Sequence record: MN158210.1
Direction: 5' to 3' (one strand)
Source: Escherichia phage BEK12A
DNA: 52,716 bases
The position numbers and the translations under genes were made by a program. Below, piece by piece: positions 1 through 40,527 of the stretch. How positions within the stretch are numbered: position 1 is the first letter of the stretch; each line of letters starts with the position of its first letter. The notes beneath the pieces were generated by a model. It saw nothing but the letters and a program-made list of their open reading frames with translations. It had not been told where the DNA came from and did no database searches.

Positions 1-528
1 ATGGCTAAAAATGTTGAGCCTGCTGTAAAGGCATTAAATTTCAAAGAGTTATACAATAAAACTTATGGCGATATTGTCACGCTAAACAACCGCCACAAGT
101 ACACGCCGGAACAGGTTTTTGATATGGCGATCCGCTATTTCACTTGGGCCGAAGAGAATCACATCCAGGCGGCTGAAACTGCTTCCTTTCAGGGTGACGT
201 GTACGAGAGCAGAGTTTACAAGCCTCGCGTTTTCACGGTTAACGGATTCAGCTTGTATCTCGGCGTGACTGAGGCTGCCGTAAGCAAATGGCGTAAAGAG
301 CCTGGATTCTGCGATGTGATGGAGTTTGTTGATAAAGTAATTTACGAGCAAAAATTCCAGCTTGCGGCAAATAACATGATTAACGCTGGATTTATCGGTA
401 AAGAGATCGGAGTAGAGAAGCCAGCAACAGTGAGCGTTGAAGCGAGCGCGGCAGCTAATGCAAGCATTGACGCAGTAACTGCCGATGAGGTTAAAGAGGC
501 TGTGATTGATATTCTGGAGAAGATATAA
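1..528 (+). CDS. putative terminase small subunit
   Basis: 175-aa ORF directly upstream of the terL/HNH block; RBS GGAGGA sits at the extreme 3' end of the window (circular permutation); position-based call. Confidence 0.5.
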   Translation: MAKNVEPAVKALNFKELYNKTYGDIVTLNNRHKYTPEQVFDMAIRYFTWAEENHIQAAETASFQGDVYESRVYKPRVFTVNGFSLYLGVTEAAVSKWRKEPGFCDVMEFVDKVIYEQKFQLAANNMINAGFIGKEIGVEKPATVSVEASAAANASIDAVTADEVKEAVIDILEKI

Positions 529-1019
529 TGAACTACTCAGATTACTTTGTCTTATCTGACGAATCGCCAAGCGGCTTGAAATGGAAGGTTAACAAAGGTA
601 GATCTAAGGTTGGAGATAACGCGATAACTGCTATCAGTGGCGGCTACTATAAAGGCCGCCTTAACCAAAAAACTGTATATGCGCACAGAATTGTGTTTGC
701 ACTTTACTATGGCTTTGAGCCTGATGTTGTTGATCATATTGATGGTGATGGTTTGAACAATAATCCGTTAAATTTAAGGGATGGAACAAAAGCAACGAAT
801 AATCAAAACCGCGTGGTGTTTGGGGCTTACTATCACAAAAGGGATGGTGTTTTTTATTCCTCGATATGTGTTAACGGTGAAAGGTATCATTTAGGAACAT
901 TTAAAAGTGAGATTGAGGCAAGGGCTGCGTACATTTCAGCAAAGCCAAAATTTCACGAGTTCGCAAATATGGAGAGGTATAAACATGCTAATTTGGGAAG
1001 ACTTGACGCCAGCGCATAA
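528..1019 (+). CDS. HNH homing endonuclease (HNH plus AP2-like DNA-binding domain)
   Basis: HRIVFALYYG...DHIDGDGLNNNPLNLRDGTKATNNQNR motif; C-terminal AP2-like segment; overlaps terS stop (ATAATGA). Confidence 0.85.
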   Translation: MNYSDYFVLSDESPSGLKWKVNKGRSKVGDNAITAISGGYYKGRLNQKTVYAHRIVFALYYGFEPDVVDHIDGDGLNNNPLNLRDGTKATNNQNRVVFGAYYHKRDGVFYSSICVNGERYHLGTFKSEIEARAAYISAKPKFHEFANMERYKHANLGRLDASA

Positions 1020-2553
1020 AAGAGCAATCAAGGAAATGAGCGAGCACTCATTCGAAAAGATGATCAGAATATGGTTTCCTCTTTTGCAAGGTCAGAAATT
1101 CTTAGGAAACTGGCATTTCAGCTACCTATGTAGCGAAGTTGAAAAAATAATCAAAGGAGAGTCGCAGAATGTGATTTTCAACATTACGCCAGGTAGCGGT
1201 AAGACTGAGATTTTCTCGATCCACATGTCACCCTACGCGTCATTGAAAAGCCGGAAAGTGAGAAACCTTAACCTTTCGTTTAGTGATGGCCTTGTCCAGC
1301 AAAACAGCAACCGGATAAAGGAGATTATTGGTTCTCCTGAGTGGCAAGAGCTATGGCCTGGAAAACTGGCAAAGGCGAGCGCTAAAGATCTGATAGTCAC
1401 CGAAGGCGGCAAGGTTAAATTGCAAGTTAACTCACGTTCTATTGGCGGCCAGGTAACAGGTTTGCGTGGCGGCTATATGGATGATGGTTTTACTGGTATG
1501 CTGGTTCTTGACGATCCAGACAAGCCGGATGACATGCTTTCTAAGGTCAAGCGCGAGGCTATTCACATGCGGTTAAAAAACACAGTGCGATCGCGTCGAA
1601 TGAAAGACACCACGCCAATTGTTATGGTGCAACAGCGACTACACGTTAATGATTCCACCTGGTTCATGCTTAATGGCGGGATGGGTGGTATTGAGTTTAA
1701 AGTTGTGAGCATTCCGGCGCTGGTTACGAAAGAATACCGCGAAACGCTTCCTGATTGGTTAAGGCATGAGTTTGATCGCGATGTTTTGTCCAGCAAGCCA
1801 GTAATGATTGATGGAGTTGCTCATTATTCATTCTGGCCTGCTAAGGAAAGCGCGGAGGAATTACTTGCACTTCGCAATGCTGATCCGTACACGTTCGCTA
1901 GTCAGTACCAGCAACAGCCTGTTGCGCTTGGCGGTAACGTGTTTAAAACAGAGTGGTTTCAGTATTACGGCAGCAGCGAGAAATGCACGCTACCAAAACC
2001 GGATCGCTTTGAATATACATTTATCACGGTTGATACCGCGCAGAAAACAGGTGAGCTTAACGACTACTCCGTGATCTGTTATTGGGGGATGTATAAAGAT
2101 CGCGTTTACTTCATTGATGGTGTTCGCGGAAAATGGGAAGCACCAGACCTTGAGACTAATTTTGTTGCGTTCGTTAATCAGTGCTGGAAGCGCAATAAAG
2201 AATGCGGAACGTTGCGAAGGATTCATGTTGAAGATAAGTCATCTGGTACTGGCTTGATTCAGAGCGCAGCGAAAAAAATCATGATCAAGATCAATCCCGT
2301 TCAGCGAGATAAAGATAAGGTTACGCGAGCAATGGACGCAGCACCAGTAATGCGCGCCGGACGCGTGGCACTTCCAGAATCGCATCCTATGCTGGCTGAG
2401 ATACTCGCTGAAGTTGCGGCGTTTACATTCGATGATAGCCATCCTCATGATGATATTGTTGACACATTGATTGATGCCGTTAATATAGAAATGAACTTGG
2501 CAGACGATCCAGTTGGAAGAATGAAGAAGTTAGCAGGGCTTAGAAAGAGATGA
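985..2553 (+). CDS. terL: terminase large subunit
   Basis: ATG at codon 27 of the 907..2553 ORF preceded by GGAGAGG; Walker A-like NITPGSGKTE; C-terminal nuclease-like acidic residues; size typical. Confidence 0.85.
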   Translation: MLIWEDLTPAHKRAIKEMSEHSFEKMIRIWFPLLQGQKFLGNWHFSYLCSEVEKIIKGESQNVIFNITPGSGKTEIFSIHMSPYASLKSRKVRNLNLSFSDGLVQQNSNRIKEIIGSPEWQELWPGKLAKASAKDLIVTEGGKVKLQVNSRSIGGQVTGLRGGYMDDGFTGMLVLDDPDKPDDMLSKVKREAIHMRLKNTVRSRRMKDTTPIVMVQQRLHVNDSTWFMLNGGMGGIEFKVVSIPALVTKEYRETLPDWLRHEFDRDVLSSKPVMIDGVAHYSFWPAKESAEELLALRNADPYTFASQYQQQPVALGGNVFKTEWFQYYGSSEKCTLPKPDRFEYTFITVDTAQKTGELNDYSVICYWGMYKDRVYFIDGVRGKWEAPDLETNFVAFVNQCWKRNKECGTLRRIHVEDKSSGTGLIQSAAKKIMIKINPVQRDKDKVTRAMDAAPVMRAGRVALPESHPMLAEILAEVAAFTFDDSHPHDDIVDTLIDAVNIEMNLADDPVGRMKKLAGLRKR

Positions 2554-3032
2554 ATTGGCACGATATTTTCTATATAGAAGATGATAAGCTATTCAATAAA
2601 GTTGATAGGGGAGCAAGGGCAATGGCTGGCAAGGAGGCTGGCTGCTTGCATAAGAATAGCGGTTATGTAGTTGTAAGGGTTGACGATAAGCTGCTAAAAG
2701 CGCATAGGATAATTTACGAAATGCGCCACGGTGCAATACCAGAAGGAATGGAGGTTGACCACATAGACCACAATAGATCAAACAACTCTGACAGCAATCA
2801 TAGGCTGGTTACGCATAAGGAAAATACACAAAACGTAACAAGGAGAAAGACAAACAACAGTGGTTGCACTGGTGTTTATTGGTATGAGTCAAGATCAAAA
2901 TGGTGGTCTTTTATTGGAACTGGCAAGGGCAGAAAATCACTTGGCTATTATTCTGACTGGTTTGATGCCGTTTGCGCCAGAAAGAGAGCGGAGTTTGAGC
3001 TTGGTTATCACGAAAACCACGGCAAGAAATAG
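2550..3032 (+). CDS. HNH homing endonuclease
   Basis: HRIIYEMRHGAIPEGMEVDHIDHNRSNNSDSNHRLVTHKENTQN; paralog of 528..1019; overlaps terL stop. Confidence 0.85.
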   Translation: MNWHDIFYIEDDKLFNKVDRGARAMAGKEAGCLHKNSGYVVVRVDDKLLKAHRIIYEMRHGAIPEGMEVDHIDHNRSNNSDSNHRLVTHKENTQNVTRRKTNNSGCTGVYWYESRSKWWSFIGTGKGRKSLGYYSDWFDAVCARKRAEFELGYHENHGKK

Positions 3033-3058
3033 CACGAATCGACAAACCAATATATAAT
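3029..3058 (+). promoter_or_regulatory. variant copy of conserved 20-bp box (ATAGCACGAATCGACAAAC) with downstream TATAAT
   Basis: stop codon TAG of HNH gene embedded in box; same variant as copy near 49296. Confidence 0.35.
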
Positions 3059-3060
3059 CA

Positions 3061-3087
3061 AGGCTGGTAAATCCAGCCTTTTTTTAT
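3061..3087 (+). terminator. rho-independent terminator
   Basis: hairpin AGGCTGGTAAATCCAGCCT followed by TTTTTTTATT, then RBS GGAGG. Confidence 0.6.
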
Positions 3088-3100
3088 TGGAGGAAAGATA

Positions 3101-4381
3101 ATGAGTAAATCACGAATCGTTAAGGCTGACGGCTACAACGAGATCTTTAAAGGCGAGAATTGCAAATCGCGAGTAGAGCAACCATTCTACATGCAGTCAA
3201 TGCCATACAAGACGCTTGCTGACTTTTACGAAAAAGATGGCCTGGCAAAAAGGATTATTGACGTAGTACCAGAGGAAATGGTTTCCCCTGGCTTTACTGT
3301 TGACGGCGTGGCAGACGAGGCAGCATTCCGTTCTTTGTGGGATGAGAAGCGATTGAATGCAAAAATTATTGATGCGCTTTGCTGGTCGCGTTTGTTTGGC
3401 GGATCTGCAATCATTGCTCTTGTTCAGGATGGGCGAGCGCTCAAATCACCTGTAAAGCCTGGAGCTATTCTGGAAGATGTGCGCGTTTACGATCGCTATC
3501 AGATTCGCGTTGAAGCGCGCGAAACTAATCCCCGCAAGGTTCGCTATGGTGAGCCAGTGCTTTACACTGTAACGCCAGGCGGAGACTTGCCGGAATACCA
3601 GGTACACTACACGCGCGTTTGCATTATCGACGGTGAGCGGATAACTAACGCAAAGCGACGCAGCAATGATGGCTGGGGTGAGTCAGTTCTTAACAAGAGA
3701 CTTGTTGAGGCTATTGTTGATTATAACTATTGTGAAACATTAGCGACGCAATTATTGCGGCGTAAGCAGCAGGCAGTATGGAAAGCTAAAGGTCTTGCTG
3801 ACTTGTGTGATGATGAGGAAGGTGTTAGCGCGGCACGACTGAGACTTGCGCAGGTTGACGACGAGGGCGGTGTTGGCAAAGCAATTGGTATTGATGCTGA
3901 GGATGAGGAATATGATGTTCTTAATTCTGACATTAGCGGCGTTGATTCTTTTCTGGAAAAGAAAATGGATCGCATAGTTTCCCTTTCAGGTATTCATGAA
4001 ATAATCCTGAAAAATAAAAACGTTGGCGGCGTTAGCGCAAGCCAAAACACGGCGCTTGAAACATTCTATAAGCTGATTGAACGAAAACGCATTGAGGATT
4101 ACAAGCCTATCCTTGAATTTCTATTGCCGTTCATCATTAGCGAGCAGGAGTGGAGCATTGAGTTTTCACCTTTGAGCGTGCCTAGCGATAAAGATCAGGC
4201 TGAAATTCTGAATAAGAATATCGACTCAATCAGCAAGGCTATTGATGGTCAGTTCCTTGATGTTGAAGAAGCGCGAGACACGTTGCGAGCAATCGCCCCA
4301 AGCGTTAAACTAAAGGACACTAATAAAATCAAGCTGCCGGAGCCAGCGGAGCCGGAGCCAGGCACACAGGGGAATGAGTAA
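3101..4381 (+). CDS. portal protein
   Basis: 426 aa, immediately downstream of terL, acidic C-terminus; synteny with siphovirus head modules. Confidence 0.75.
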   Translation: MSKSRIVKADGYNEIFKGENCKSRVEQPFYMQSMPYKTLADFYEKDGLAKRIIDVVPEEMVSPGFTVDGVADEAAFRSLWDEKRLNAKIIDALCWSRLFGGSAIIALVQDGRALKSPVKPGAILEDVRVYDRYQIRVEARETNPRKVRYGEPVLYTVTPGGDLPEYQVHYTRVCIIDGERITNAKRRSNDGWGESVLNKRLVEAIVDYNYCETLATQLLRRKQQAVWKAKGLADLCDDEEGVSAARLRLAQVDDEGGVGKAIGIDAEDEEYDVLNSDISGVDSFLEKKMDRIVSLSGIHEIILKNKNVGGVSASQNTALETFYKLIERKRIEDYKPILEFLLPFIISEQEWSIEFSPLSVPSDKDQAEILNKNIDSISKAIDGQFLDVEEARDTLRAIAPSVKLKDTNKIKLPEPAEPEPGTQGNE

Positions 4382-5145
4382 TGAAAGTGAAGGGCGTCGT
4401 TAAACAATGGCGCTTTCCTGAAGCAAGCGAGCGGCAACTTAGCCGCTCAATTCAGGAGGCAATTAGAGATCTTGTAATTCTCATGCGCAAGCGAACAAAA
4501 GCGATGAAGTTTGACGCAACGGATAATGAGATCAACAGCGCAGAAGATGAAATTAACAGCCTGGCAACTGACCTTATAGCTGGCATTGTTTCCACTCTTC
4601 CTGCAATCGCGTTGACCATTTATAAATTCAATGCGAAGCAGTTTATCAATGTTGCCAAGTCAACTGGCGGAAAGGATAACACGGCGGTAATTGTTTTGAT
4701 CGCGGTTGGCGCTAACGCTAACGAGGAGTGGTATAAGACGCTTTACGGTCAATGGCACGGACTTACAGAATCATCGCTAAGGAAGTTATTCACAAATATT
4801 GTGTCTGACTGGTCAACAAACATTCGCAATGCAAACTTTCGCGGAAGCAATGATAAACAGGTTAATGATCTTGCAGAAAAGAGATTTGCTGTTTATAGCT
4901 CCTGGGGTAAAACGAGATCAGAAAACATTATCGGCGCGTGGAATAGTCGCCTGATGCGCCAGCGCCTTTATGATGCTAAGGTGACTCATTATTTCTGGCA
5001 TGGAATGTTAGATGATAGAGAGCGCTTGCAGCATGTGTTATGGGAAGGTAAAAGAATAGCGCTTGATGCAATTCATGATTTCCCTGGTGAGCCGTGGGGT
5101 TGTCGTTGCTGGGCGATTCCAGATTGGAATAATAAAGGAGAGTAA
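4381..5145 (+). CDS. head morphogenesis / minor head protein
   Basis: 254 aa after portal, ATGA overlap; position-based call (SPP1 gp7 / Mu F-like slot). Confidence 0.55.
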   Translation: MKVKGVVKQWRFPEASERQLSRSIQEAIRDLVILMRKRTKAMKFDATDNEINSAEDEINSLATDLIAGIVSTLPAIALTIYKFNAKQFINVAKSTGGKDNTAVIVLIAVGANANEEWYKTLYGQWHGLTESSLRKLFTNIVSDWSTNIRNANFRGSNDKQVNDLAEKRFAVYSSWGKTRSENIIGAWNSRLMRQRLYDAKVTHYFWHGMLDDRERLQHVLWEGKRIALDAIHDFPGEPWGCRCWAIPDWNNKGE

Positions 5146-5148
5146 TTA

Positions 5149-6261
5149 ATGAAGGCAAAACAAAGATTTGATAGCGTCCAGGTTAAGGCGCATTTTGATG
5201 ATAATGGCTTTTTAGTGGATCGCCCAATTGTGGCGCGAATTGGTTTGCAGGAGTACCGCACACCGTATGGAATCAGACGAGAGTTCCGACCAGCGTCAGA
5301 GGTGTTTAAGGCTGATTCGCTTGCTACGTTCGCAGGCAAGCCGATCACTATCGGTCACGTCACGGTAACGCCAGACAATGCGGATCAGGTTGTTGTTGGT
5401 TCATGCGCTGGCGCTGGTGTTCCAAATGGGATTGGCGTTGAAGTTCCGTTAAGCATTTACTCAAAGCGAGCAATTGAGAGTGCAAAAAAGAAAGACACGG
5501 CGGAAATTTCAGTTGGTTACACATCGGTTGATATTGACAAGCCAGGCTGGGGTAATAATAAAACTGGTGATTACTTGTTTGAGGAAGACCTCAAGGAAGA
5601 CTGGAAGCCTGATTCTTCTGATTGGGTTAAATTTGACGCCATTCAGACGAACATCCGTGTTAATCACATTGCACTTGTCTTTCGTGGTCGTGCTGGCATT
5701 GCCAAATTAAATCTTGATAGTGAACAGGATTTTCCGTATAGTGACGAGGTTCTAAATGACAAAGGAGATGAGGAAATGACAGTAAAAATTAAACTTGATG
5801 GCGCGGTAGAATTTGATGTTCCAAAGGCCGTTGCTGATCATATTGAGGCGTTAAAGGCAGATGCAAAAGCTGCAACCGAAAAAGCTGATGGCCTTGAGGC
5901 AGAGCGCGACGCCCTGAAAACTAAAGTCGATGGCATTCCGGCGCAGATTGCAGAAGCTGTTAAGAAGGCAAAGACTGACGCAGAAGAACACGCCAAGCTG
6001 GTTGCAGATGCAACTGAAATTGGCATCAAGTGTGACGGATTGGACGCTAAAGCGATCAAGGTTGCTTACGTCAAAGAAGTCACTGGCGCTGATATTTCAG
6101 AAAAAGCCGATGCATATATTGAAACAGCTTTTGACCTTGCGAAGCAGTCTGATAAAATGGCGGCGCAGCGTAAATCTGTTAAGGGCGATTCTTTCGAATC
6201 TGGCAAGAGTGAAAAAACCGACTCCCTTGATCCGACTGCGCGTTTGAAAAAACTTAAATAA
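5149..6261 (+). CDS. putative prohead protease / scaffolding protein
   Basis: 370 aa; N-terminal globular part plus Ala/Lys/Glu-rich coiled-coil C-terminus typical of scaffolds; position between portal and capsid. Confidence 0.5.
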   Translation: MKAKQRFDSVQVKAHFDDNGFLVDRPIVARIGLQEYRTPYGIRREFRPASEVFKADSLATFAGKPITIGHVTVTPDNADQVVVGSCAGAGVPNGIGVEVPLSIYSKRAIESAKKKDTAEISVGYTSVDIDKPGWGNNKTGDYLFEEDLKEDWKPDSSDWVKFDAIQTNIRVNHIALVFRGRAGIAKLNLDSEQDFPYSDEVLNDKGDEEMTVKIKLDGAVEFDVPKAVADHIEALKADAKAATEKADGLEAERDALKTKVDGIPAQIAEAVKKAKTDAEEHAKLVADATEIGIKCDGLDAKAIKVAYVKEVTGADISEKADAYIETAFDLAKQSDKMAAQRKSVKGDSFESGKSEKTDSLDPTARLKKLK

Positions 6262-6273
6262 GGAGAAATAAAC

Positions 6274-6786
6274 ATGGCTACAATTGGAGCAAGTTATTTT
6301 GCTGTAATGTCTCGTGCGTTACCTGGTCAGGTTTCTGACACTTCAGCTTATAATATTGATGGCGCTTGTGTTCTTGAGAATGCGGCAGGCAATCAGAATA
6401 AGTCTGTTTTTGTTGGTGTGGCGGTCCAGCATGGCGGCGTTGATGCTATGGGCAATAAGCTAATTAAGCCGATGGCGGCAAGCGGCAAGGCTTACGGCGT
6501 TGCAATTCGATCTCACTTTCAGACAACTTCGTCTGACGGTCGAATGATTTATGAATCTGGCGGCGGAATCAACGTAATGACTGAGGGGCGTGTTTGGATG
6601 TTGGCTAAAGACGCTTCCGCTCCAGCGTTCGGCGCTGCAATCAAACTTTCTGATGATGGTCAGGTTGATACCGCGTCTGGCACTATCGAAACAAACTGGA
6701 TCGCGACTGGTGATTTCACCGAGTTTCAAGGCTTGAAGCTGGTAGAGGTTCAGGTGCAAAAAGTTCCGGCAGTTTCAGCAGGTTAA
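6274..6786 (+). CDS. structural protein, possible head decoration protein
   Basis: 170 aa; paralogous to the next ORF (shared G-R-x-W-x-L block); location upstream of capsid gene. Confidence 0.4.
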   Translation: MATIGASYFAVMSRALPGQVSDTSAYNIDGACVLENAAGNQNKSVFVGVAVQHGGVDAMGNKLIKPMAASGKAYGVAIRSHFQTTSSDGRMIYESGGGINVMTEGRVWMLAKDASAPAFGAAIKLSDDGQVDTASGTIETNWIATGDFTEFQGLKLVEVQVQKVPAVSAG

Positions 6787-6792
6787 TAAATA

Positions 6793-6816
6793 TGGCGCTC
6801 ACTGAGCGCCTTTTTT
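6793..6816 (+). terminator. rho-independent terminator
   Basis: GGCGCTCACTGAGCGCC hairpin plus TTTTTTAT. Confidence 0.6.
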
Positions 6817-6831
6817 ATATTTGGGGTTATC

Positions 6832-7266
6832 ATGAGTGATTATTCAGTCATTGTTGGCGCTGAGTCGCCAGGGTGCATGGTCGATTCTTCAATAATGGTG
6901 ATTAACGGATCTTTCGTGTGCGGAGATGAATTTATTGCGCCAGGTAAGATTGTGCGACTATCACATATAATAAATGGATACAAAATAGCAAGTGTTAATG
7001 GGGATCTTGTTATTGGCGTGGCAGTAAGGCCGCCGGACTCGTGCATATATGAGGAGGGTGATCCCGTTAATGTGGTTAGTAGAGGTAGTGTGTGGTGCTT
7101 AACTTCTGAGAGCGAAGCGCCAGAATATGGAGATAAAGTATTTGTAACGCAAGATGGAGATGCTGCATACAGTGAAGGCGACTTGCTGAGCGGTTGGATC
7201 TTTACTGGCGAACATGTAAAGGTTGATCATGATTCATATATTGTCGGGGTAAGCATTAGCGCATAA
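6832..7266 (+). CDS. structural protein, paralog of 6274..6786
   Basis: 144 aa; shared motif with the preceding ORF. Confidence 0.4.
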   Translation: MSDYSVIVGAESPGCMVDSSIMVINGSFVCGDEFIAPGKIVRLSHIINGYKIASVNGDLVIGVAVRPPDSCIYEEGDPVNVVSRGSVWCLTSESEAPEYGDKVFVTQDGDAAYSEGDLLSGWIFTGEHVKVDHDSYIVGVSISA

Positions 7267-7284
7267 CACAAAATTATGTTGCAC

Positions 7285-7303
7285 GTTTAACAAAAAATGC
7301 TAT
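7285..7303 (-). promoter_or_regulatory. conserved 20-bp box, reverse orientation, abutting capsid gene leader
   Basis: GTTTAACAAAAAATGCTAT on the plus strand equals the box on the minus strand. Confidence 0.5.
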
Positions 7304-7349
7304 CATTGTGGCGTTACATACTAACGGCCTTTATATATGGAGGAAGAAA

Positions 7350-8324
7350 ATGGAAAAAGAAAAATTTGATCAGCTAGATGCGGATATTGTTTCTAGCTAT
7401 CTGGCTACTCGCGGCGTTAAGGGTGATGCTTCTGATATGGGTATCTGGACGGCGCAAGAGCTTCACAAGATCCGCTCAACTGCTTACGAGAAAGAATATC
7501 CGGCAGGTTCAGCGCTTCGTGTATTCCCTGTAACTAATGAGCTTTCTGATACTGATAAGACTTTTGAATATCAGATGTTTGACAAGGTTGGTTACGCAAA
7601 AATTATCGCTGATTACACCGACGATCTGCCGACCGTTGACGCGCTGATGTCCAGCGAATTTGGTAAAGTGTTCCGCTTGGGTAACGCGTTCTTGATCTCC
7701 ATTGACGAAATCAAGGCTGGTCAGCGCACTGGTAAGAGCCTTTCCACTCGCAAGGCAAACGCAGCGCAAAACGCTCATGATCAGGAAGTTAACCGCCTGG
7801 TGTTTAAGGGTTCAAAGCCGCATAAGATTCTTTCGGTGTTTGAGCACCCTAACCTGACAAAGATCGTGTCAACTGGCTGGTTAAGTGCTGATGAAAACAC
7901 TAAGTTCCCGCAGGCGGCATCTGATGAACTGGAAAAGGCTATTGAAACAATTCAGAACATCACCAATGGTCAGCACCGAGCAACCAACATCCTGATTCCG
8001 CCGTCTATGCGCAAGGTTCTTTCCGTTCGAATGGAAAACACCACTGAAAGTTATCTGGAATACTTCCAGAAACAAAACAGCGGAATCACCATTGACTCAA
8101 TCGCAGAGCTTGAGGATATTGATGGCACAGGAACGAAAGGTTGCCTGGTATATGAGAAAGACCCGATGAACATGTCGATCGAAATTCCAGAAGCATTTAA
8201 CATGCTTCCTGCGCAACCAAAAGATCTGCATTTCAAAGTTCCGTGTACTTCAAAATGTACTGGCCTGACGATTTACCGTCCGTTTACGCTAGTGCTTATT
8301 ACTGGCTTGAAAAAATCAAGTTAA
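7350..8324 (+). CDS. major capsid protein
   Basis: ATG at codon 15 of the 7308 ORF preceded by GGAGGA; about 324 aa; strong terminator downstream; position in module. Confidence 0.7.
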   Translation: MEKEKFDQLDADIVSSYLATRGVKGDASDMGIWTAQELHKIRSTAYEKEYPAGSALRVFPVTNELSDTDKTFEYQMFDKVGYAKIIADYTDDLPTVDALMSSEFGKVFRLGNAFLISIDEIKAGQRTGKSLSTRKANAAQNAHDQEVNRLVFKGSKPHKILSVFEHPNLTKIVSTGWLSADENTKFPQAASDELEKAIETIQNITNGQHRATNILIPPSMRKVLSVRMENTTESYLEYFQKQNSGITIDSIAELEDIDGTGTKGCLVYEKDPMNMSIEIPEAFNMLPAQPKDLHFKVPCTSKCTGLTIYRPFTLVLITGLKKSS

Positions 8325-8336
8325 TCGTATAGCATT

Positions 8337-8366
8337 GGGGAATCCTTAACTGGATTCCCTTTTTTA
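8337..8366 (+). terminator. rho-independent terminator
   Basis: GGGAATCCTTAACTGGATTCCC hairpin plus TTTTTTATT, then RBS GGAGG. Confidence 0.65.
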
Positions 8367-8380
8367 TTGGAGGTTATGAA

Positions 8381-8653
8381 ATGGCTAAAGAAAAAACTGT
8401 AACGCTAAAGGTTTCCGGCGTGTGCCTTATCATTGTTGATGGTGAGCATTATCATCCAGGCAAAGAGTTTGACGTAGAAGAATCAAAATTGAAAACAAGC
8501 GCGTTTGAATATCTAATTGCAAAAGGCGATCTGGAGGTTAAAGACAACTCCGCATTGAACGAAGAAATCAAACAGAGCGCAGCAAGCAAACGTAAAAAAG
8601 ACCCGCGAGAGGGCAAGAGCAAAGCCGAACTTGAAGACGGCGGCATCTATTAA
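8381..8653 (+). CDS. hypothetical head-associated protein
   Basis: 90 aa ORF with RBS, between two hairpins. Confidence 0.45.
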   Translation: MAKEKTVTLKVSGVCLIIVDGEHYHPGKEFDVEESKLKTSAFEYLIAKGDLEVKDNSALNEEIKQSAASKRKKDPREGKSKAELEDGGIY

Positions 8654-8657
8654 TAAA

Positions 8658-8682
8658 GAGGGCGCTATAAGCGCCCTTTGTC
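8658..8682 (+). terminator. possible weak terminator hairpin
   Basis: AGGGCGCTATAAGCGCCCT with a short T-run. Confidence 0.3.
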
Positions 8683-8700
8683 ACATCTGGAGAAAACAAA

Positions 8701-9120
8701 ATGGTAGATGAATTTTACACAGACGCTGAAATCATGCAGCAGATCGTAAAGTTAGCGCCGCCAATGCAACAGGTTGATCCCGATTTAATTGTGGCATGGA
8801 TTGAGCTTGCTAAAGAGTTTGTTTGCAAAAAGCGTTTTAAAAACTCATACCCGAAAGCAGTTGCGCTTTACACTCTTCACCTTATGACCTTAGACGGGGC
8901 AATGAAACAGGAAGGTGAAAGCGTAGAAAGCTATTCCCGCCGCGTCGCCTCGTTCACTCTGACTGGTGAGTTTAGTCAGACGTTTGATCGAATCTCTTCC
9001 GATACAAGCGGAAAGCAGATCCGACAAACGCCGTGGGGCAAAATGTACGAAGTGTTAAACCGTAAGCACGGTGGCGGTTTTGGCCTTGTAACTGGATTGC
9101 GCCGGAGATGTTGCCGATGA
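8701..9120 (+). CDS. putative head-tail connector / adaptor protein
   Basis: 139 aa; position after capsid; overlapping stop/start with the next gene. Confidence 0.45.
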
Positions 9121-11079: not shown

Positions 11080-11394
11080 ATGGCAAAGATGAAATTAACA
11101 CTTGGCCCACTGCCGGACTTCAAGCTACCAGTAAACTTCGTTATGCCTGACGGGAGCGAACAGAAAATCATTTTCACCGTGAAGCACAAGAAAGCGACGG
11201 AGGTCCAGGAGCTTTACCGGAAAGATGGGATCAAAGATTCCGACTTTATCATGAACATTGCGACGGGTTGGGATCTTGAAGAAGAATTTAACCACGAAAA
11301 CGCAAAACTGTTAGTCGATTATTACCCTGGGTCAGCGTTGGCGCTCGTTCAATCCTACTTAGGCGCTCTGGCTGGTCAGCGCGTAAAGGGTTAA
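11080..11394 (+). CDS. tail assembly chaperone
   Basis: 104 aa directly upstream of tape measure; RBS AAGGAG. Confidence 0.55.
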   Translation: MAKMKLTLGPLPDFKLPVNFVMPDGSEQKIIFTVKHKKATEVQELYRKDGIKDSDFIMNIATGWDLEEEFNHENAKLLVDYYPGSALALVQSYLGALAGQRVKG

Positions 11395-11705
11395 GGCGCG
11401 CGGTTTACCTGTTTTACCAGAAGCCACCGACAGACGCAGAGCTTGAAGCGGTCGGATTAACACGCGCCGACTACGAAGGCGAGGAGCCGCCGGAGGTTAT
11501 TTTCGATGAAAGCATGATGCAATCATGGGATGTTTTTTGTGCAATGCAAACGCAGTGGAGAAGCGCCGGATCTGGCGCTTACGGATTTGACTATAATGTT
11601 TTGCCGATGTTGTTCAGAATCTATAAAATAGAAGATGAAGAAATGGCCTTAAACGATTTGCGAATCATGGAACAAAAAGCATTAGAAATGATGCACCAAA
11701 AATAG
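11292..11705 (+). CDS. possible -1 frameshift extension of tail assembly chaperone (G/GT-like)
   Basis: the -1 frame is open from about 11292 to 11705, overlapping the 3' end of the chaperone ORF; no canonical slippery heptamer identified. Confidence 0.3.
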   Translation, partial: PRKRKTVSRLLPWVSVGARSILLRRSGWSARKGLRRAVYLFYQKPPTDAELEAVGLTRADYEGEEPPEVIFDESMMQSWDVFCAMQTQWRSAGSGAYGFDYNVLPMLFRIYKIEDEEMALNDLRIMEQKALEMMHQK

Positions 11706-11711
11706 CAATCA

Positions 11712-11735
11712 AAGCGCCTACTGGCGCTTTTTTAA
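11712..11735 (+). terminator. terminator-like hairpin
   Basis: AAGCGCCTACTGGCGCTT plus TTTTTAAT. Confidence 0.45.
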
Positions 11736-11753
11736 TATCTGGAGTAAATGAAC

Positions 11754-24903: not shown

Positions 24904-24936
24904 CAAAAAGCCCCGCATGTGCGGGGCATTTTTTTA
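24904..24936. terminator. bidirectional rho-independent terminator
   Basis: GCCCCGCATGTGCGGGGC flanked by A-run and T-run between convergent ssb and tail fiber genes. Confidence 0.7.
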
Positions 24937-27333
24937 GTTAAGAGTAGTAGGATTGTTGATTAGCTTTGACAGCAACTCTTTTAACTCTGCAACCTCCTTT
25001 TCAAGTTTTGATATTCTTTCTTTGTTATCAACATCACGAGCGCGAAGCGCTTTTATTGCAGCCAGTCCATCCATCAGCAGCGGATTAGTGTCAAGAGTCA
25101 TAATTCCAGATACAGAATCGCTATGAACATACTCCCTATCTATCATCATGGCATCTTGAGCTATTATTCCGCGTCTTGCACTCCTTTCGTTGCTATCAAA
25201 TGTATACCTAAATAATTTGAAGTTCATCCTTGATATATTATCTAGCGCGCATTCAACATTAAGATTTCCTTTAACATCCTTGAATCTAATATCAGAGGTT
25301 CCAGACTTCTGTAATGTGTTCCAAGGCTTAGTTGTTTTGGCTACCTTCGGATCTCCTGTATCGTTATATCTAGTGTATGCATTCCCAGCCGTGTCAATCC
25401 AGAATTGAAATATCCTGTATTTATCATAGGATGATTGAAAACCACCTCCATTTGCAGGAGCCCACTTAGTACCGCTTAGATTATCACTTATAAACTGACA
25501 TCCGGCGTTTGTTATATCATTAGCAAGGCTTTTTACTTGACCAACTCCATATTTTGATGCTACAGGATGCCAAACCCAACCACTCCACTTCCACGAACCA
25601 GAAGCCTTGTCATAACTCCTTGAATAGTAAGATGGATCGTCAATAGGGTAATAATATTGATTTGCATGTTCTACCCCGTTCGCAGTAGAGCTTGTAACAA
25701 GAAGAACGCCAGCTTTTTGTACTGGATAGTTATTTTGAGGAGTTGCGTTAGCATTTGCACCCTGATAGTAATAACCAAAATTACTATAACCATATAAGTC
25801 ATTTAGGTTTCCGCTTAATGCACCCCTTTGCTGCCTCATTAAATTTAGGTTGTCTCTTGCCGACTCTGCTGATTTTGAACCAGTACCCCCCTTGCTTATT
25901 GGTAAAGCTATATCAGATTTCGATGTAGAATCCCACATTCCCCAATCGCCATTATTTTTTACGAAAATTCGCTTTGTTCCATCAGCACTTGAAACGACGG
26001 TCTCACCGGATGCATCAGTTCCCTGCACCAATCTATCTACGCCAAGATTCACCTTTGTAGTTTTCACATCTGACACTGAAATAGAATTTCCGATGAAATT
26101 ACCGCTAATGCTGAAATTTCCATCAATGTCAAGACCTGCATACTTGTTAACAGAGCTGTCAGCATTTGACAAATGAAGTGTTAACCATTCCTTATTGTCT
26201 CCGCGTATTTCACCATAAAACCTATATCCAAGCCTTTTTTGACCAGATGTATTATTCAGATACCCTGACAATATGCCAGCCGCAGCTTGCGGTGAGTCGC
26301 TTTTCTTAACAAGATTAATGTTTTGAAATTGAGGGGTATTATCATCTCCAAGCCCTATCCTTGTTCTGTATGTGTCAGTTGCCTCCTGAGAATAAAATGC
26401 AGACCATGCTGACCATACTTGTCTTGTTGGATCGTACCATCTCGAATAAAAGTAAGCCTGAGAATTGTAAGGCATGTAAATTTGATGGCAGGCATCGTTA
26501 CCGTTAGCCCTGTTTGAGATAACTTGCAAAGATCCGGCCAATTTTGCTGGATACCCCCTTTCAGGAGTAGCTAAAGCACTATCACCTTGAAAGTAAAGAC
26601 CAGCTTGCTCACCCTTAAGATTATCTATGTTTGTCTCATCAAGATTAACCCATGATTGATAGTATGCGCTTAAATTCTTTCGTGAGACAACCTTATCAGC
26701 AAGATCATTAAGATTTTGAGACTTAACAAGAAAATTACCAGGTTGAATGCTTTCTGCATACTGCTTAGCTTTATCTTCGCTTGCTTTTGCTGCATCCTGA
26801 CTACCCTTAGCGGCTGTTGCAGAATTTGCCGACGCATCTTGACTGGCCTTTGCAGCATTCTTGAATTGCTCGGCGTCATTTCTTGCATTAACAGCATTTG
26901 TTTCGCTTATTTTTGCAGCTTCCGCGCTTTGTTTTGCTGATTCAGCGCCTTGCTTCACCTGATTTACAAGATCTTTCAACCCATCAAGATCGAAATCTCT
27001 AAAAAATTCAAGCGCGTCAGCGATCTCTGTTTCCTTGCTTTGATAGTAACGCAGCGTTTCCGCTACGTCCTGCGCCAGCCCGTCAACCGTTAACGAGTCA
27101 TGAAGCAAGATCAGGTAATTTGTCTTCTGAACTACCGCGCCGCCAGTAGTAATTGCGCGAATGCTTGTATCGCTAATCACTTCTGTAATCACAGCAGCTT
27201 GCAAAGGTTGAGTAAGAAAGAAAATAGTTGCGCCTGGGCGAATCAAGGTTAATTGCTCACGCCATTTTGTGTCGTAACCAGTTACATAACCTTGCGCGTC
27301 CATAGACGCTTGGCCTTGTCTGTAAATTGCCAT
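24934..27333 (-). CDS. side tail fiber with C-terminal intramolecular chaperone (peptidase S74-like) domain
   Basis: 799 aa; C-terminus [21 protein letters not shown]...[12 protein letters not shown] resembles auto-cleaving chaperone domain of T5 L-shaped fiber / endosialidase; RBS AGGAGG. Confidence 0.75.
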
Positions 27334-27350
27334 TTGTAAAATCCTCCTAA

Positions 27351-27370
27351 ATAGCACTTTTTGCTAATGA
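27351..27370 (+). promoter_or_regulatory. conserved 20-bp box (variant), opposite orientation to adjacent tail fiber gene
   Basis: ATAGCACTTTTTGCTAATGA immediately upstream of the fiber RBS on the other strand. Confidence 0.4.
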
Positions 27371-31474: not shown

Positions 31475-31909
31475 ATGAAACTTAAATCATCTTTACTTAT
31501 CGCAGCTTTGGCATTAACAGGTTGTGGATTTAAAAAGACAGTGCACACTGATTTTAATATCAACTCTTGCACAAACTTAACAATGAATGTTGTGATGCAT
31601 TCAGCATCAAAGGCATACCATGATTCATGGTATAACAAAAACAGAGACACGATCAAATATATCGCTTACAGTGAGTGCAAGTCATCAATCGAAAACAATT
31701 TAATAGAAAACATCGGCACGAAATATAATTTTGTACGCGAAAAGGAAAAGTACATCACCCCATCAAAGCCTAGTGATATTGATATTTCAAATGTTCTTTC
31801 GGAAGTTCCAGAGATAATAACCTATGCTCACGCTGTAGGTTCAAAGCTCGCAACTACATCAAAGGTTGAGACTATCGAGATCTCAAAGAAGGCAAACGAA
31901 GTTTTTTAA
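31475..31909 (+). CDS. lipoprotein of unknown function
   Basis: MKLKSSLLIAALALTGCGF signal peptide with lipobox. Confidence 0.55.
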   Translation: MKLKSSLLIAALALTGCGFKKTVHTDFNINSCTNLTMNVVMHSASKAYHDSWYNKNRDTIKYIAYSECKSSIENNLIENIGTKYNFVREKEKYITPSKPSDIDISNVLSEVPEIITYAHAVGSKLATTSKVETIEISKKANEVF

Positions 31910-38335: not shown

Positions 38336-38553
38336 TTGATCCGCTCTATTGCAACCAGAAGTCGATCAGGCTGGCGGTCGCTGTAGCATTCTCCTGTAAT
38401 CCCATCCTTAAACGTAAAGTAAAGCGCCTTATGATATGAAAAACCAATCAGCCAACCTACCGACGTTTTTTTGATGGGCCTGACTATATCGCCAGGCTTG
38501 AAGGTTTTTGTTGCTGAATTAGTAACCTTATAGCGATATTCAGTCTTGATCAT
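38332..38553 (-). CDS. hypothetical protein
   Basis: ATG at codon 40 of the 38670 ORF, overlapping HNH stop; about 73 aa; stop TAG in box. Confidence 0.4.
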   Translation of the reverse strand: MIKTEYRYKVTNSATKTFKPGDIVRPIKKTSVGWLIGFSYHKALYFTFKDGITGECYSDRQPDRLLVAIERIK

Positions 38554-39061
38554 AAGGCTTCTCGCTTCCGTGGTTTTCGTGGAATCCGTACTTTTTCCAA
38601 ATAGCATCTCTTGATGATACAGCGCTATCAATTGATGCATGATAACCACCAGAAATACACCTGCCATCAACAGTTACTTGTACGCACCATTTAGACACCC
38701 TCTTATTCCACATCACGCCAGTATAACCAGATTTATTTGTCGATCTCCTTGTGTGGTTTTGTGAGTTTTGTTTTCTTGTGACAAGCCGGAGGTTTTCGAT
38801 TCTATTGTCATCTCTTATGTGATTCACGTGATCTATCTCCATTCCTTTTGGTATTGTTTTTCCATGCATCCACCAAACAATCCAATGCGCCGGATACTCT
38901 CTGCCACCAATACCTATACGTCTATATCCGTTTTTAGTTATATAACCTGCCTCATCGCCAATTTTTGCCCGTCTTCCTGATGGGCTTTTCCATAATAGAC
39001 GACCATTTTCATATATAAATAAATTTAGAAGTACTTGCCTTGAAATTCCGCTATTGCACAT
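38540..39061 (-). CDS. HNH homing endonuclease
   Basis: HWIVWWMHG...EIDHVNHIRDDNRIENLRLVTRKQNSQN. Confidence 0.8.
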   Translation of the reverse strand: MCNSGISRQVLLNLFIYENGRLLWKSPSGRRAKIGDEAGYITKNGYRRIGIGGREYPAHWIVWWMHGKTIPKGMEIDHVNHIRDDNRIENLRLVTRKQNSQNHTRRSTNKSGYTGVMWNKRVSKWCVQVTVDGRCISGGYHASIDSAVSSRDAIWKKYGFHENHGSEKPYDQD

Positions 39062-39252
39062 TTAAATCCCACCTCGCGTCTTTCAAGAGTCCATTGCTCA
39101 CCTTGAGCATCAACAACGTAACCAGCTACAGCGCCTAAAACCCTTCCCATAATTATCTCATAGCGTTTCCCTTCCTTAAAATGCTGACCTGGCTTTACGC
39201 TGTTCATGTGGTGGTAAACTTTTGTGCATTTTATTGTTCTCTTCTTTGTCAT
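39025..39252 (-). CDS. hypothetical protein
   Basis: 75 aa; RBS AAAGGAGAAATAAACG. Confidence 0.45.
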   Translation of the reverse strand: MTKKRTIKCTKVYHHMNSVKPGQHFKEGKRYEIIMGRVLGAVAGYVVDAQGEQWTLERREVGFKCAIAEFQGKYF

Positions 39253-39283: not shown

Positions 39284-39327
39284 ATTATGCCAGGTTTTTA
39301 CACCTGGCTTTTAACAAAAAGTGCTAT
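39284..39327 (-). promoter_or_regulatory. conserved box - hairpin - CATAAT module (leftward)
   Basis: minus strand ATAGCACTTTTTGTTAAAAG, CCAGGTGTAAAAACCTGG, CATAAT, CACCGAAACGAA. Confidence 0.6.
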
Positions 39328-40010
39328 TTTGAGTTTGACTCAAAGACGGCGCGAGCAAATCCGCGCGGAGTGAGGGAGCGTAGTTGCTTTGTTCTGGCAG
39401 ACTTACCGCCTAAAAACTTCCAACCCCAAAAGAACATTACGCCCTCATCATTGGATAACGGCTTGCGTTCCGGTTCTGTAAATCCGTTGCCGCACCAGAT
39501 AGCAGTCCTTTTTGTGTAGCCATCCTTTAGCGGCATCTTGGGGTGAAAAGATCCATCGGATTCGTCCAGGTAGTTACCAAAATCGCGAGGATTGAAATAA
39601 AAATCAGGCTTGCGCCATAGCGTTGATAGTCGGCCTACAGGATTCTCAGCCATCCAGGGAACACCGAAATGATTCCCGACAGTTTCAACCATGATTGCAT
39701 TTTTGAGCGCAACCTGAATATCATCATCGCTTCGCACGTGCTTGATTCCTGATTGGGCAAACATGGTGCAGTCTGGAAATCCAAATACAATATCTGGTTT
39801 TGGAATACCAATCTTACTGATTCTTTCAATGAAATTTTCATCAATCCACATATTCACATAATGCAGATTTTCATGTTTCATCTTGATGAAATATTCGCCG
39901 TGATTGCCTTCATCAGCGTTAAAGCAATAGCATTGATAGCCAGCCTTCGCATATTCAAGCAGCATGATTCCAGATCCATCAAACATTGAGTAAGCAACTT
40001 TATTTCCCAT
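39324..40010 (-). CDS. putative DNA methyltransferase-like protein (divergent C5-cytosine MTase-like motifs)
   Basis: FDGSG (motif I-like), GFPDCTMFAQSG (PC-motif-like with an insertion), ENPVG (ENV-like); divergent, so assignment is tentative. Confidence 0.35.
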   Translation of the reverse strand: MGNKVAYSMFDGSGIMLLEYAKAGYQCYCFNADEGNHGEYFIKMKHENLHYVNMWIDENFIERISKIGIPKPDIVFGFPDCTMFAQSGIKHVRSDDDIQVALKNAIMVETVGNHFGVPWMAENPVGRLSTLWRKPDFYFNPRDFGNYLDESDGSFHPKMPLKDGYTKRTAIWCGNGFTEPERKPLSNDEGVMFFWGWKFLGGKSARTKQLRSLTPRGFARAVFESNSK

Positions 40011-40527
40011 GATTTTTATGATACCCCAATTCATTCTCGGCTTTACGTTTTGCGGCAACAGCATCTCCAAAACTGGAAAAACAACCTATATAAATCCTAC
40101 TTCCTCTCCTTCCGCCTCCAACCCTTACAACCCATTTGCCATGTTTATTTTTATGCACACCTGGTATGCCACTTGTATTGTTTTTCTGCTTTGATGTGTT
40201 TCGCATATTTCCTTTGTGATCTTTTAACTCAAAGTTTATTGCTCTGTTATCAGTCGTAATGTGATTTACGTGATCAACCTCCTTTCCTTCCGGTATAGGC
40301 CCATAGTGCATTTCATAGCATATTCTATGAACTTTCAGGTTATAACGTTTTCCGTTTACAGTAAGTGCAGTTTCTAAATATCTGCCACCACTACCCAAAG
40401 AGCCAACCTCATTACCAGCATTGCAAGCATTCCATTGTTTAACTCTTGATGGGTGAATATCTTTTCTTTCTTTCCAGAACAGCTTTCCAGTTTCTGGATT
40501 GTATGTAAAGTAATCGTGCCAATTCAT
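40000..40527 (-). CDS. HNH homing endonuclease (HNH plus AP2-like)
   Basis: HRICYEMHYGPIPEGKEVDHVNHITTDNRAIN; C-terminal AP2-like segment similar to 528..1019. Confidence 0.8.
   Translation of the reverse strand: MNWHDYFTYNPETGKLFWKERKDIHPSRVKQWNACNAGNEVGSLGSGGRYLETALTVNGKRYNLKVHRICYEMHYGPIPEGKEVDHVNHITTDNRAINFELKDHKGNMRNTSKQKNNTSGIPGVHKNKHGKWVVRVGGGRRGSRIYIGCFSSFGDAVAAKRKAENELGYHKNHGK

What the first reader, a model, noticed from the sequence alone, without database searches (positions are those of the whole stretch)
528..3032. Terminase gene bracketed by two free-standing HNH endonucleases; four HNH genes in total
HNH genes lie between terS and terL (528..1019) and directly after terL (2550..3032), each overlapping its neighbour's stop. 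Two more sit in the leftward early operon (38540..39061, 40000..40527). Two of them (528 and 40000) share an AP2-like C-terminal domain. The arrangement looks like homing-endonuclease invasion of conserved genes, and the terL-flanking copies could also take part in packaging.
Basis: partly seen in the sequence, partly recalled or inferred. Interest (0 to 1): 0.45.

Follow-up and report, generated by a model that had tools for sequence, protein, structure and literature searches.

The report
Four mobile HNH nuclease genes in a T1-like phage
This T1-like coliphage (BEK26) carries four selfish "homing" nuclease genes wedged precisely between essential genes; close relatives with empty sites and a sharp patch of imported flanking DNA show they arrived by gene conversion, which is ordinary, well-known phage biology.

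Summary
The window is Escherichia phage BEK26 (MN158216.1; Drexlerviridae, Warwickvirus). The four HNH ORFs exist exactly where stated and overlap their neighbours' stop or start codons. GenBank already labels them "homing endonuclease". All four are 28-45% identical paralogues: an I-HmuI-like HNH_3 nuclease with intact catalytic residues, followed by a C-terminal domain. Models show that domain has an AP2 fold in HNH1 and HNH4; for HNH2 and HNH3 this rests on alignment. Each gene is a precise insertion at a gene boundary, and empty-site alleles exist for all four. HNH1 sits in a ~640-bp donor-type patch (457-bp insert, at most 17 bp of left flank, ~170 bp of right flank) inside an otherwise 99% backbone-type sequence. 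Against a near-isogenic empty-site contig, mismatches run 45/190 inside the patch versus 7/1090 outside. dN/dS is 0.05-0.18, so the proteins are maintained. A packaging role is not supported: closest relatives lack the genes, the proteins have no zinc-site HNH signature, and T1-like phages package by headful. terL did not move as a bracketed island, because its middle is backbone-type and no other genome has both flanking genes. Verdict: homing supported, known kind, low interest.

The parts
1..528 (+). terS (small terminase), Warwickvirus/tonijn-type allele
   Evidence: Pfam GP3_package and PHROG 606; 98-100% identical to tonijn and about 75% to Hanrivervirus.
528..1019 (+). HNH1, a free-standing HNH_3 + AP2-fold endonuclease gene. 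The inserted segment is about 531-987 (457 bp). The last 35 nt of the ORF run out of frame into terL.
511..1157 (.). Donor-type (EC147-like, about 97%) gene-conversion tract containing HNH1. Crossovers lie between 510|520 and 1155|1158.
   Evidence: Informative sites. BEK26 versus the near-isogenic empty-site contig L018: 45/190 mismatches inside the tract versus 7/1090 in the flanks, Fisher p 2e-32.
985..2553 (+). terL (large terminase), a mosaic: codons 1-58 EC147-type, 59-251 tonijn-type, about 259-480 Hanrivervirus-type, and the last ~30 codons A121-type
   Evidence: Pfam Terminase_6C and PHROG 38; codon-wise comparison; informative sites.
2550..3032 (+). HNH2, a free-standing HNH_3 endonuclease gene inserted at the last codons of terL. 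It gives terL a new ...KR* end (ATGA overlap) and ends on terL's original stop codon.
   Evidence: It is 97.7% identical at the same site in 'Campylobacter phage' A120, A121, A127, A131 and A134. Sequence hit to I-HmuI at E 1.6e-4.
2253..3032 (.). A121-type tract: about 300 bp of the terL 3' end plus HNH2, nested in the Hanrivervirus-type block
   Evidence: Informative sites, grams versus A121; junction alignment.
3060..3087 (+). Terminator-like hairpin plus T-run between HNH2 and the portal gene. HNH2 lies upstream of it, in the terL transcription unit.
   Evidence: conserved in empty-site genomes.
1738..8683 (.). Roughly 6.9-kb Hanrivervirus-type (grams-like, 95-100%) block in a Warwickvirus backbone. 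It covers the terL 3' half, HNH2, portal and head genes. Crossovers lie at 1737|1761 and 8659|8684; the right one is intergenic.
   Evidence: The related contig L018 crosses over at about 1875-1881 instead.
38540..39061 (-). HNH3 ('EndY' in JK16), a free-standing HNH_3 endonuclease gene
   Evidence: Present in 18 phage records and absent from tonijn and JLBYU07.
39025..39252 (-). 75-aa ORF, a divergent N-terminally shortened allele (51% identity) of tonijn_40 / PHROG 2684. Together with HNH3 it replaces the 128-aa gene of HNH3-less phages.
39324..40010 (-). dcm-like C5 cytosine methyltransferase, the divergent allele linked to HNH4 (50-70% nt identity to the tonijn/JK16 allele). Its true ATG is at 40010.
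   Evidence: PHROG 757. A121 carries the same allele without HNH4.
40000..40527 (-). HNH4, a free-standing HNH_3 + AP2-fold endonuclease gene inserted exactly at the dcm start (empty site GAGGTAATGAC; filled site GAGGTAATGAATGAATTGG). It overlaps dcm by 11 nt.
   Evidence: The model has pLDDT 91. Foldseek gives I-HmuI at E 1e-4 and AP2 domains 1gcc and 7et5 at probability 1.0. Present in 12 phage records.

Best explanation
The four genes are free-standing homing endonuclease genes (HEGs) of the HNH_3 (I-HmuI-like) + AP2-fold class. Each sits at a gene boundary, takes over the downstream gene's ribosome-binding site and start codon (or the upstream gene's stop), and supplies a replacement. It is therefore co-expressed with terS/terL or with the early dcm operon without disrupting them. 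The inferred mechanism runs as follows. In a mixed infection with a related phage lacking the gene, the nuclease nicks or cuts the HEG-less allele close to the insertion point. Repair copies the HEG, plus a variable stretch of flanking donor sequence, from the HEG-carrying genome. The likely targets are the first ~170 bp of terL for HNH1, the last ~300 bp of terL for HNH2, dcm for HNH4, and the PHROG-2684 gene or the gene downstream of it for HNH3. The HEG-linked flanks carry mostly synonymous substitutions that probably protect the carrier from self-cleavage. Shown here: nuclease and DNA-binding folds, intact catalytic residues, purifying selection, exact insertion sites, empty-site alleles, sporadic distribution, and a sharply bounded donor-type tract around HNH1. 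Inferred: cleavage activity, target positions, and the direction and timing of transfers. The two terL-flanking genes arrived in separate events, and their bracketing of terL is incidental.
For: Identity: all four hit HNH_3 and PHROG 99. The D-H...N...N...N residues are invariant across 72 homologues and present in all four. I-HmuI is the best solved match, and the AP2 fold follows it in the HNH1 and HNH4 models. Many homologues carry precomputed PF00847 + PF13392. Selection: dN/dS is 0.05-0.18 in informative comparisons. Free-standing: terL is one uninterrupted ORF and there are no Rfam intron hits. Empty sites. All four presence/absence combinations of HNH3 and HNH4 occur among Warwickviruses. 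Sporadic distribution: HNH1 is in 2, HNH2 in 6, HNH3 in 18 and HNH4 in 12 of about 185-190 related records. Co-conversion: the HNH1 tract is bounded at 510|520 and 1155|1158 within 99% backbone-type sequence. Against L018 there are 45/190 versus 7/1090 mismatches, p 2e-32. HNH2, HNH3 and HNH4 are each linked to divergent alleles of the adjacent gene segment. Hotspots: other HNH lineages occupy the terS/terL junction in JeanPiccard, ES and RCIP0096 and the terL/portal junction in L017 and L018. Literature: the HNH+AP2 HEG family and HEGs clustering next to terminase genes are described in PMC10448857; sporadic HNH genes in Drexlerviridae are described in PMC13164509.
Against: No enzyme activity, cleavage site or transfer has been measured for any of the four. 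The HNH1 donor tract is 97%, not 100%, identical to EC147, so the true donor is unsampled. The 6.9-kb Hanrivervirus block is much longer than the other tracts and may be ordinary modular recombination unrelated to HNH2. Target-site positions rest on very few HEG-plus genomes (two for HNH1). I-HmuI-type enzymes are nickases (my knowledge of the family, not tested here). How a nick would be turned into a recombinogenic break in this phage is not known.
Confidence: 0.85

Rival explanations
1. The terL-flanking HNH proteins are accessory packaging nucleases that work with terminase, like HK97 gp74 and other HNH proteins encoded next to cos sites.
For: They lie immediately next to terS and terL and appear translationally coupled to them. 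Barth et al. note that homing and packaging roles are not mutually exclusive (PMC10448857).
Against: Closest relatives lack them. tonijn and L018 have a 99-100% identical terS and backbone without HNH1, and grams, EC147 and tonijn lack HNH2. Only 2 and 6 of about 190 related records carry them. There is no PF01844 hit and no CxxC/CxxH zinc-site motif, which is the signature of packaging-type HNH proteins (PMC3592412). The same protein family also sits in the early operon next to dcm. T1-like phages use headful packaging (PMC13164509).
Confidence: 0.04
2. terL together with its two flanking HEGs forms a 'HEG island' that moves between phages as one unit.
For: An essential gene bracketed by two HEGs is the arrangement Barth et al. 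define (PMC10448857). terL is visibly chimeric between genera.
Against: The central 580 bp of terL (1158-1737) is 99-100% backbone (tonijn) type, lying between the two imported ends. No other record carries both HNH1 and HNH2: EC147 has only HNH1, and A120, A121, A127, A131 and A134 have only HNH2. The two ends match different donors (EC147-like versus A121-like).
Confidence: 0.03
3. The genes are relics or domesticated nucleases that no longer home. The presence/absence pattern then reflects old insertions plus ordinary modular recombination and loss.
For: Bioinformatics alone cannot show current activity (stated also in PMC10448857). HNH3 and HNH4 are linked to very divergent neighbouring alleles (50-70% nt), which could be old cassettes shuffled by general recombination.
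Against: All catalytic residues are intact. There is strong purifying selection. Copies in otherwise different genera are 97-100% identical. The very short, sharply bounded HNH1 tract sits in a 99% isogenic background and so looks recent.
Confidence: 0.08

Closest known systems
I-HmuI (Bacillus phage SPO1 HNH homing endonuclease, PDB 1U3E)
   Different: I-HmuI is encoded inside a group I intron and has a different C-terminal DNA-binding region (my knowledge of the family). The BEK26 genes are free-standing, and HNH1 and HNH4 end in an AP2-fold domain.
HNH + AP2 homing endonuclease family of phages, cyanobacteria and protists (Magnani et al. 2004 as cited in PMC10448857; 'IPA-HNH' HEGs of ICP1-like phages)
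   Same: It has an N-terminal HNH and a C-terminal AP2 domain, and these HEGs are frequently found next to terminase, polymerase and other essential genes. Many homologues of HNH4 carry PF00847 + PF13392.
   Different: The ICP1 IPA-HNH domains are too divergent for the Pfam HNH_3 profile, whereas the BEK26 proteins are canonical HNH_3. Their AP2 domains are instead too divergent for the Pfam AP2 threshold.
Free-standing HEGs of T4-like phages (seg and mob genes; intronless homing with co-conversion of flanking markers)
   Same: They are intergenic HEGs that cut a neighbouring conserved gene in HEG-less relatives and spread with a flanking conversion tract. This is my knowledge of the family, and PMC10448857 describes the same association. 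The HNH1 tract has this signature.
   Different: Seg proteins are GIY-YIG enzymes; the Mob proteins are HNH but not the AP2 architecture (my knowledge). Cleavage is demonstrated there and not here.
Terminase-associated HNH packaging proteins (HK97 gp74, N.phiGamma-type nickases)
   Same: They belong to the HNH superfamily and are encoded next to terminase genes.
   Different: Those proteins have [CxxC]2 or CxxH zinc sites, lie next to a cos site, and are conserved in their phage groups (PMC3592412). The BEK26 proteins have no such motifs, belong to a headful-packaging family, and are absent from most relatives.
HEG islands (Barth, Dunham & Seed 2023, PMC10448857)
   Same: An essential packaging gene is flanked by HEGs, and HEGs sit at boundaries of inter-phage exchange.
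   Different: The bracketed terL was not exchanged as a unit, and the two HEGs have separate tracts and donors.

Membership tests
Free-standing HNH_3/AP2 homing endonuclease genes | HNH_3 beta-beta-alpha-metal nuclease domain with intact catalytic D-H...N...N residues | tested here: met
   PF13392 above the gathering score in all four. D, H and three N are invariant in a 72-sequence alignment and present in all four. I-HmuI is the top structural match.
Free-standing HNH_3/AP2 homing endonuclease genes | Separate sequence-reading DNA-binding domain (AP2 fold) after the nuclease | tested here: met
Free-standing HNH_3/AP2 homing endonuclease genes | Not inside an intron or intein; flanking genes intact | tested here: met
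   terL, terS and dcm are uninterrupted ORFs. There are no Rfam families, including group I/II introns, in the window.
Free-standing HNH_3/AP2 homing endonuclease genes | Same site occupied or empty among close relatives (sporadic distribution) | tested here: met
   Empty-site alleles exist for all four. Counts are 2, 6, 18 and 12 of about 190 related records.
Free-standing HNH_3/AP2 homing endonuclease genes | Co-conversion of flanking markers with the HEG | tested here: met
   HNH1 has a tract at 511-1157 with crossovers at 510|520 and 1155|1158, and 45/190 versus 7/1090 mismatches, p 2e-32. HNH2-4 are linked to divergent flanks, which is consistent but less sharply bounded.
Free-standing HNH_3/AP2 homing endonuclease genes | Site-specific cleavage of the HEG-less allele and super-Mendelian inheritance in mixed infection | not testable with these tools
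   This needs purified enzymes and phage crosses.
Terminase-associated packaging HNH (HK97 gp74 type) | HNH domain with [CxxC]2 or CxxC+CxxH zinc site (PF01844-type) | tested here: not met
   There is no PF01844 hit at E <= 0.01. None of the four has a CxxC or CxxH pair: HNH1 has one Cys and the others have three scattered Cys. The motif definition comes from PMC3592412.
Terminase-associated packaging HNH (HK97 gp74 type) | Conserved component of the packaging module across related phages | tested here: not met
   Absent from tonijn, grams, L018 and most of about 190 relatives.
Terminase-associated packaging HNH (HK97 gp74 type) | Phage packages from a cos site | not tested
   The literature states that T1-like phages use headful packaging (PMC13164509). 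BEK26 reads were not available to confirm its termini.
HEG island (Barth et al. 2023) | Essential gene(s) bracketed by HEGs | tested here: met
   The order is HNH1 - terL - HNH2.
HEG island (Barth et al. 2023) | Bracketed segment shared as one high-identity block between otherwise dissimilar phages | tested here: not met
   The terL middle (1158-1737) is backbone-type and the ends come from different donors. No other record carries both HEGs.

The most novel reading that the evidence does not exclude
Both terL-flanking nucleases target terL itself, at its 5' and 3' ends, in HEG-less relatives. In mixed infections they would then disable the rival's packaging gene and repeatedly drive exchange of terL and head-module segments between the genera Warwickvirus and Hanrivervirus. 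The different terL crossovers in BEK26 (1738-1760) and L018 (about 1875-1881), and the swap of HNH alleles at the terL/portal site, would be footprints of this. BEK26, L018, tonijn, EC147 and A121 would then form a natural near-isogenic series for measuring conversion tracts and mapping targets.
Probability: 0.25. Interest if true: 0.4.

Novelty: new member of a known kind. Interest (0 to 1): 0.2.

Why it matters
It matters little beyond careful annotation. It gives a clean natural example of intronless homing in a T1-like phage. It includes a base-level conversion tract and a near-isogenic empty-site allele. It shows that HEGs mark, and probably cause, some inter-genus mosaic junctions that complicate Drexlerviridae taxonomy, since BEK26 is a Warwickvirus with a Hanrivervirus head module. 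It also argues against reading every terminase-adjacent HNH gene as a packaging factor. The enzymes could become site-specific nickases or tools if their targets were mapped.

Tried and rejected
1. Pfam on the isolated C-terminal domains gave only a sub-threshold AP2 hit for HNH1 and nothing for HNH2 or HNH4. Structure prediction was needed to settle the fold for HNH1 and HNH4.
2. The IMG/VR scan with HNH1 found no relatives, so site-specificity of HNH1 rests on the INPHARED records only.
3. A literature search for 'BEK26' returned nothing.
4. The codon-wise comparison of terL with A121 is invalid after about codon 140 because of an indel in A121. Only nucleotide informative sites were used for A121.
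5. The Rfam scan of the whole window gave no hits, so no intron or other structured RNA is associated.
6. Packaging-factor and HEG-island readings were considered and rejected (see rivals).
7. I considered that the 6.9-kb Hanrivervirus block is one long HNH2 co-conversion tract. This cannot be shown: its right border is 5.6 kb from HNH2, at an intergenic site, which is equally compatible with ordinary modular recombination.
8. The promoter-like scan around terS-HNH2 gave fewer hits than shuffled sequence (4 versus 5.8 expected), so no dedicated HEG promoter is claimed.
Full report
**Source and context.** The window is the complete genome of Escherichia phage BEK26 (MN158216.1, 52,716 bp; Drexlerviridae, Tempevirinae, Warwickvirus), rotated so that window position 1 is record position 30,540. 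The record already annotates all four genes as 'homing endonuclease'. A full-text search found no paper mentioning BEK26.

**Observation.** The four ORFs are at the stated coordinates and strands. All four pass the Pfam HNH_3 gathering threshold (E 1e-11 to 7e-18). All four match PHROG 99 'HNH endonuclease' end to end. terS (1-528), terL (true start 985, end 2553) and portal (3101-4381) are confirmed. The HNH1 ATG overlaps the terS stop (TAATG), and the HNH2 ATG overlaps the terL stop (ATGA). tblastn of the four proteins against the window finds only these four loci.

**Protein anatomy.** The four proteins are paralogues, 28-45% identical, with HNH1 the most divergent.
- In a 72-sequence alignment of homologues, the residues D-H, N, N and N of the beta-beta-alpha-metal motif are invariant, and all four BEK26 proteins have them.
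- The C-terminal region aligns in all four. HNH2 and HNH3 give only weak direct AP2 hits, and many homologues carry PF00847 + PF13392. The AP2-like domain therefore probably occurs in all four, but for HNH2 and HNH3 this is an inference from alignment. By Pfam alone only HNH1 gives a hit, and that hit is sub-threshold.
- The last 13 residues of HNH1 are predicted disordered. About 11 of them are read-through into terL sequence in another frame.

**Insertion sites.**
- HNH1. In empty-site genomes (tonijn, grams, L018) the terS stop and terL start overlap as ATAATG. In BEK26 and EC147 a 457-bp segment sits exactly there. HNH1 uses the former terL RBS and ATG, and its 3' end carries a new GGAGAGG RBS and ATG for terL.
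- HNH2. It is inserted between the ...LR codons of terL and the native NK-stop. terL gains a KR-stop overlapping the HNH2 ATG, and HNH2 ends on the original terL stop codon. It lies upstream of the conserved terminator-like hairpin at 3060-3087.
- HNH4. It is inserted at the dcm start. The empty site reads GAGGTAATGAC and the filled site reads GAGGTAATGAATGAATTGG. The dcm ATG is regenerated at 40010, giving an 11-nt overlap.
- HNH3. HNH3 plus a 75-aa ORF replaces the 128-aa tonijn_40 gene. The 75-aa ORF is 51% identical to the C-terminal 69 residues of tonijn_40, and both match PHROG 2684.
- No intron RNA family is detected anywhere in the window, so the genes are free-standing.

**Distribution.** Among about 185-190 related phage records, HNH1 (at least 97% identity) occurs in 2, HNH2 in 6, HNH3 in 18 and HNH4 in 12.
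- All four combinations of HNH3 and HNH4 exist among Warwickviruses: tonijn has neither, JLBYU07 has HNH4 only, JK16 has HNH3 only, and EC167 and BEK26 have both.
- BEK26 is the only record carrying both HNH1 and HNH2.
- The same junctions are occupied by other HNH lineages. The terS/terL junction holds an HNH gene in the Braunvirinae phages JeanPiccard and ES and in Klebsiella phage RCIP0096. The terL/portal junction holds one in IMG/VR contigs L017 and L018, at 59-61% amino-acid identity to HNH2.

**Mosaic and conversion tracts.** In 250-bp steps BEK26 is 97-100% identical to tonijn over most of its length. There are two exceptions: 501-1250 is EC147-like, and 1751-8750 is Hanrivervirus (grams)-like.
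- Informative sites place the HNH1 tract between 510|520 and 1155|1158. That is at most 17 bp of left flank, the 457-bp insert, and about 170 bp of right flank.
- Contig L018 has the same backbone and an empty terS/terL site. BEK26 differs from it at 45 of 190 aligned bases inside the tract, but at only 7 of 1090 in 1-510 plus 1158-1737 (Fisher p 2e-32).
- The Hanrivervirus block runs from 1737|1761 to 8659|8684, and the right border is intergenic.
- Inside that block, about 300 bp of terL 3' end plus HNH2 is A121-type.
- L018 crosses from Warwickvirus-type to Hanrivervirus-type at about 1875-1881, not at 1738-1760. It carries a different HNH allele, although the last ~75 nt of the two HNH genes are 97% identical. 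Recombination in and around terL is therefore recurrent.
- HNH4 is linked to a dcm allele only 50-70% identical to the tonijn and JK16 allele. A121 carries that allele without HNH4.
- Most terL differences are synonymous.

**Selection.** dN/dS is 0.14 for HNH1 versus EC147, 0.07 for HNH1 versus RCIP0096, 0.05 for HNH2 versus A121, 0.18 for HNH3 versus A121, and 0.17 for HNH4 versus JLBYU07. The proteins are maintained as functional.

**Packaging hypothesis.** Packaging-type HNH proteins carry [CxxC]2 or CxxH zinc sites and sit next to cos sites (PMC3592412). The BEK26 proteins have no such motifs and no PF01844 hit. They are missing from near-identical viable relatives. T1-like phages use headful packaging (PMC13164509). 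The same protein family also sits beside dcm in the early operon. A packaging role is therefore unsupported, though only deletion mutants would exclude it.

**HEG-island hypothesis.** Barth et al. (PMC10448857) describe essential genes bracketed by HEGs that move as units. Here the middle of terL (1158-1737) is backbone-type, the two ends come from different donors, and no other genome has both HEGs. The bracket therefore arose from two separate acquisitions.

**Mechanism.** Shown here: fold, catalytic residues, selection, precise sites, empty alleles, sporadic distribution, and a bounded donor tract. Inferred: each enzyme nicks or cuts the HEG-less allele near its insertion point. Repair from the HEG-carrying genome then copies the HEG and a variable flank. 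The asymmetry of the tracts suggests targets in the first ~170 bp of terL (HNH1), the last ~300 bp of terL (HNH2), dcm (HNH4), and the PHROG-2684 gene or the gene downstream of it (HNH3). HEG-plus-specific substitutions cluster at terL nt 25-45, but with only two HEG-plus genomes this is weak.

**Novelty.** HNH+AP2 HEGs, HEGs beside terminase genes, HEGs at exchange boundaries, and sporadic HNH genes in Drexlerviridae are all described. These particular enzymes are annotated but uncharacterised. This is a new member of a known kind, of low interest.

Noticed in passing
window 40340: The window has T where the GenBank record MN158216.1 (local copy) has G. This is the only difference found in the 13.7 kb compared. 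It changes HNH4 residue 63 from Thr (record) to Asn (window). EC167 and JLBYU07 also have T.
   Followed up: yes
window 1738-8683: BEK26 is classified as a Warwickvirus, but its terL 3' half, portal and head genes (about 6.9 kb) are 95-100% identical to Hanrivervirus grams and only about 75-85% to Warwickvirus tonijn. This inter-genus module swap would affect marker-gene (terL or portal) taxonomy.
   Followed up: partly
L005 (MG065670.1) and the other MG0656xx records: About 20 records named 'Campylobacter phage' (flagged UNVERIFIED, host C. jejuni) are Drexlerviridae/Tempevirinae genomes. They are 90-98% identical to coliphages in terL, HNH2, HNH3 and dcm. The host assignment looks doubtful.
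   Followed up: no
L018:2947-3420 versus window 2550-3032: Two HNH alleles at the terL/portal site are only 51-71% identical in nucleotides over most of their length but 97% identical over the last ~75 nt. This suggests recombination inside the HEG, meaning partial allele replacement.
   Followed up: partly
L017:5509-5985: IMG/VR contig UViG_3300045988_032326 has a further HNH gene between the head-morphogenesis and prohead-protease/scaffold genes. That site is empty in BEK26.
   Followed up: no
window 24934-27357 (-), especially 25001-26000: The distal part of this 807-aa tail-fibre-like ORF has no detectable similarity to tonijn, grams, EC147 or A121. It is probably a swapped receptor-binding region.
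   Followed up: no
window about 31475-31900: A roughly 250-bp stretch absent from the four comparison genomes begins an ORF. Hand translation of its first bases gives MKLKSSLLIAALALTGC..., which looks like a lipoprotein signal peptide with a lipobox. It may be a superinfection-exclusion lipoprotein (sequence printed).
   Followed up: no
window 43750-46750: This accessory early region is largely absent from the comparison genomes. Its ORFs match PHROGs of unknown function: 4841, 7116, 11577 and 9122.
   Followed up: partly
window 11251-14500: This region is only 67-89% identical, or unmatched, in all four comparison genomes, and part of it is closest to A121. It is another non-backbone segment and its ORFs were not examined.
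   Followed up: no
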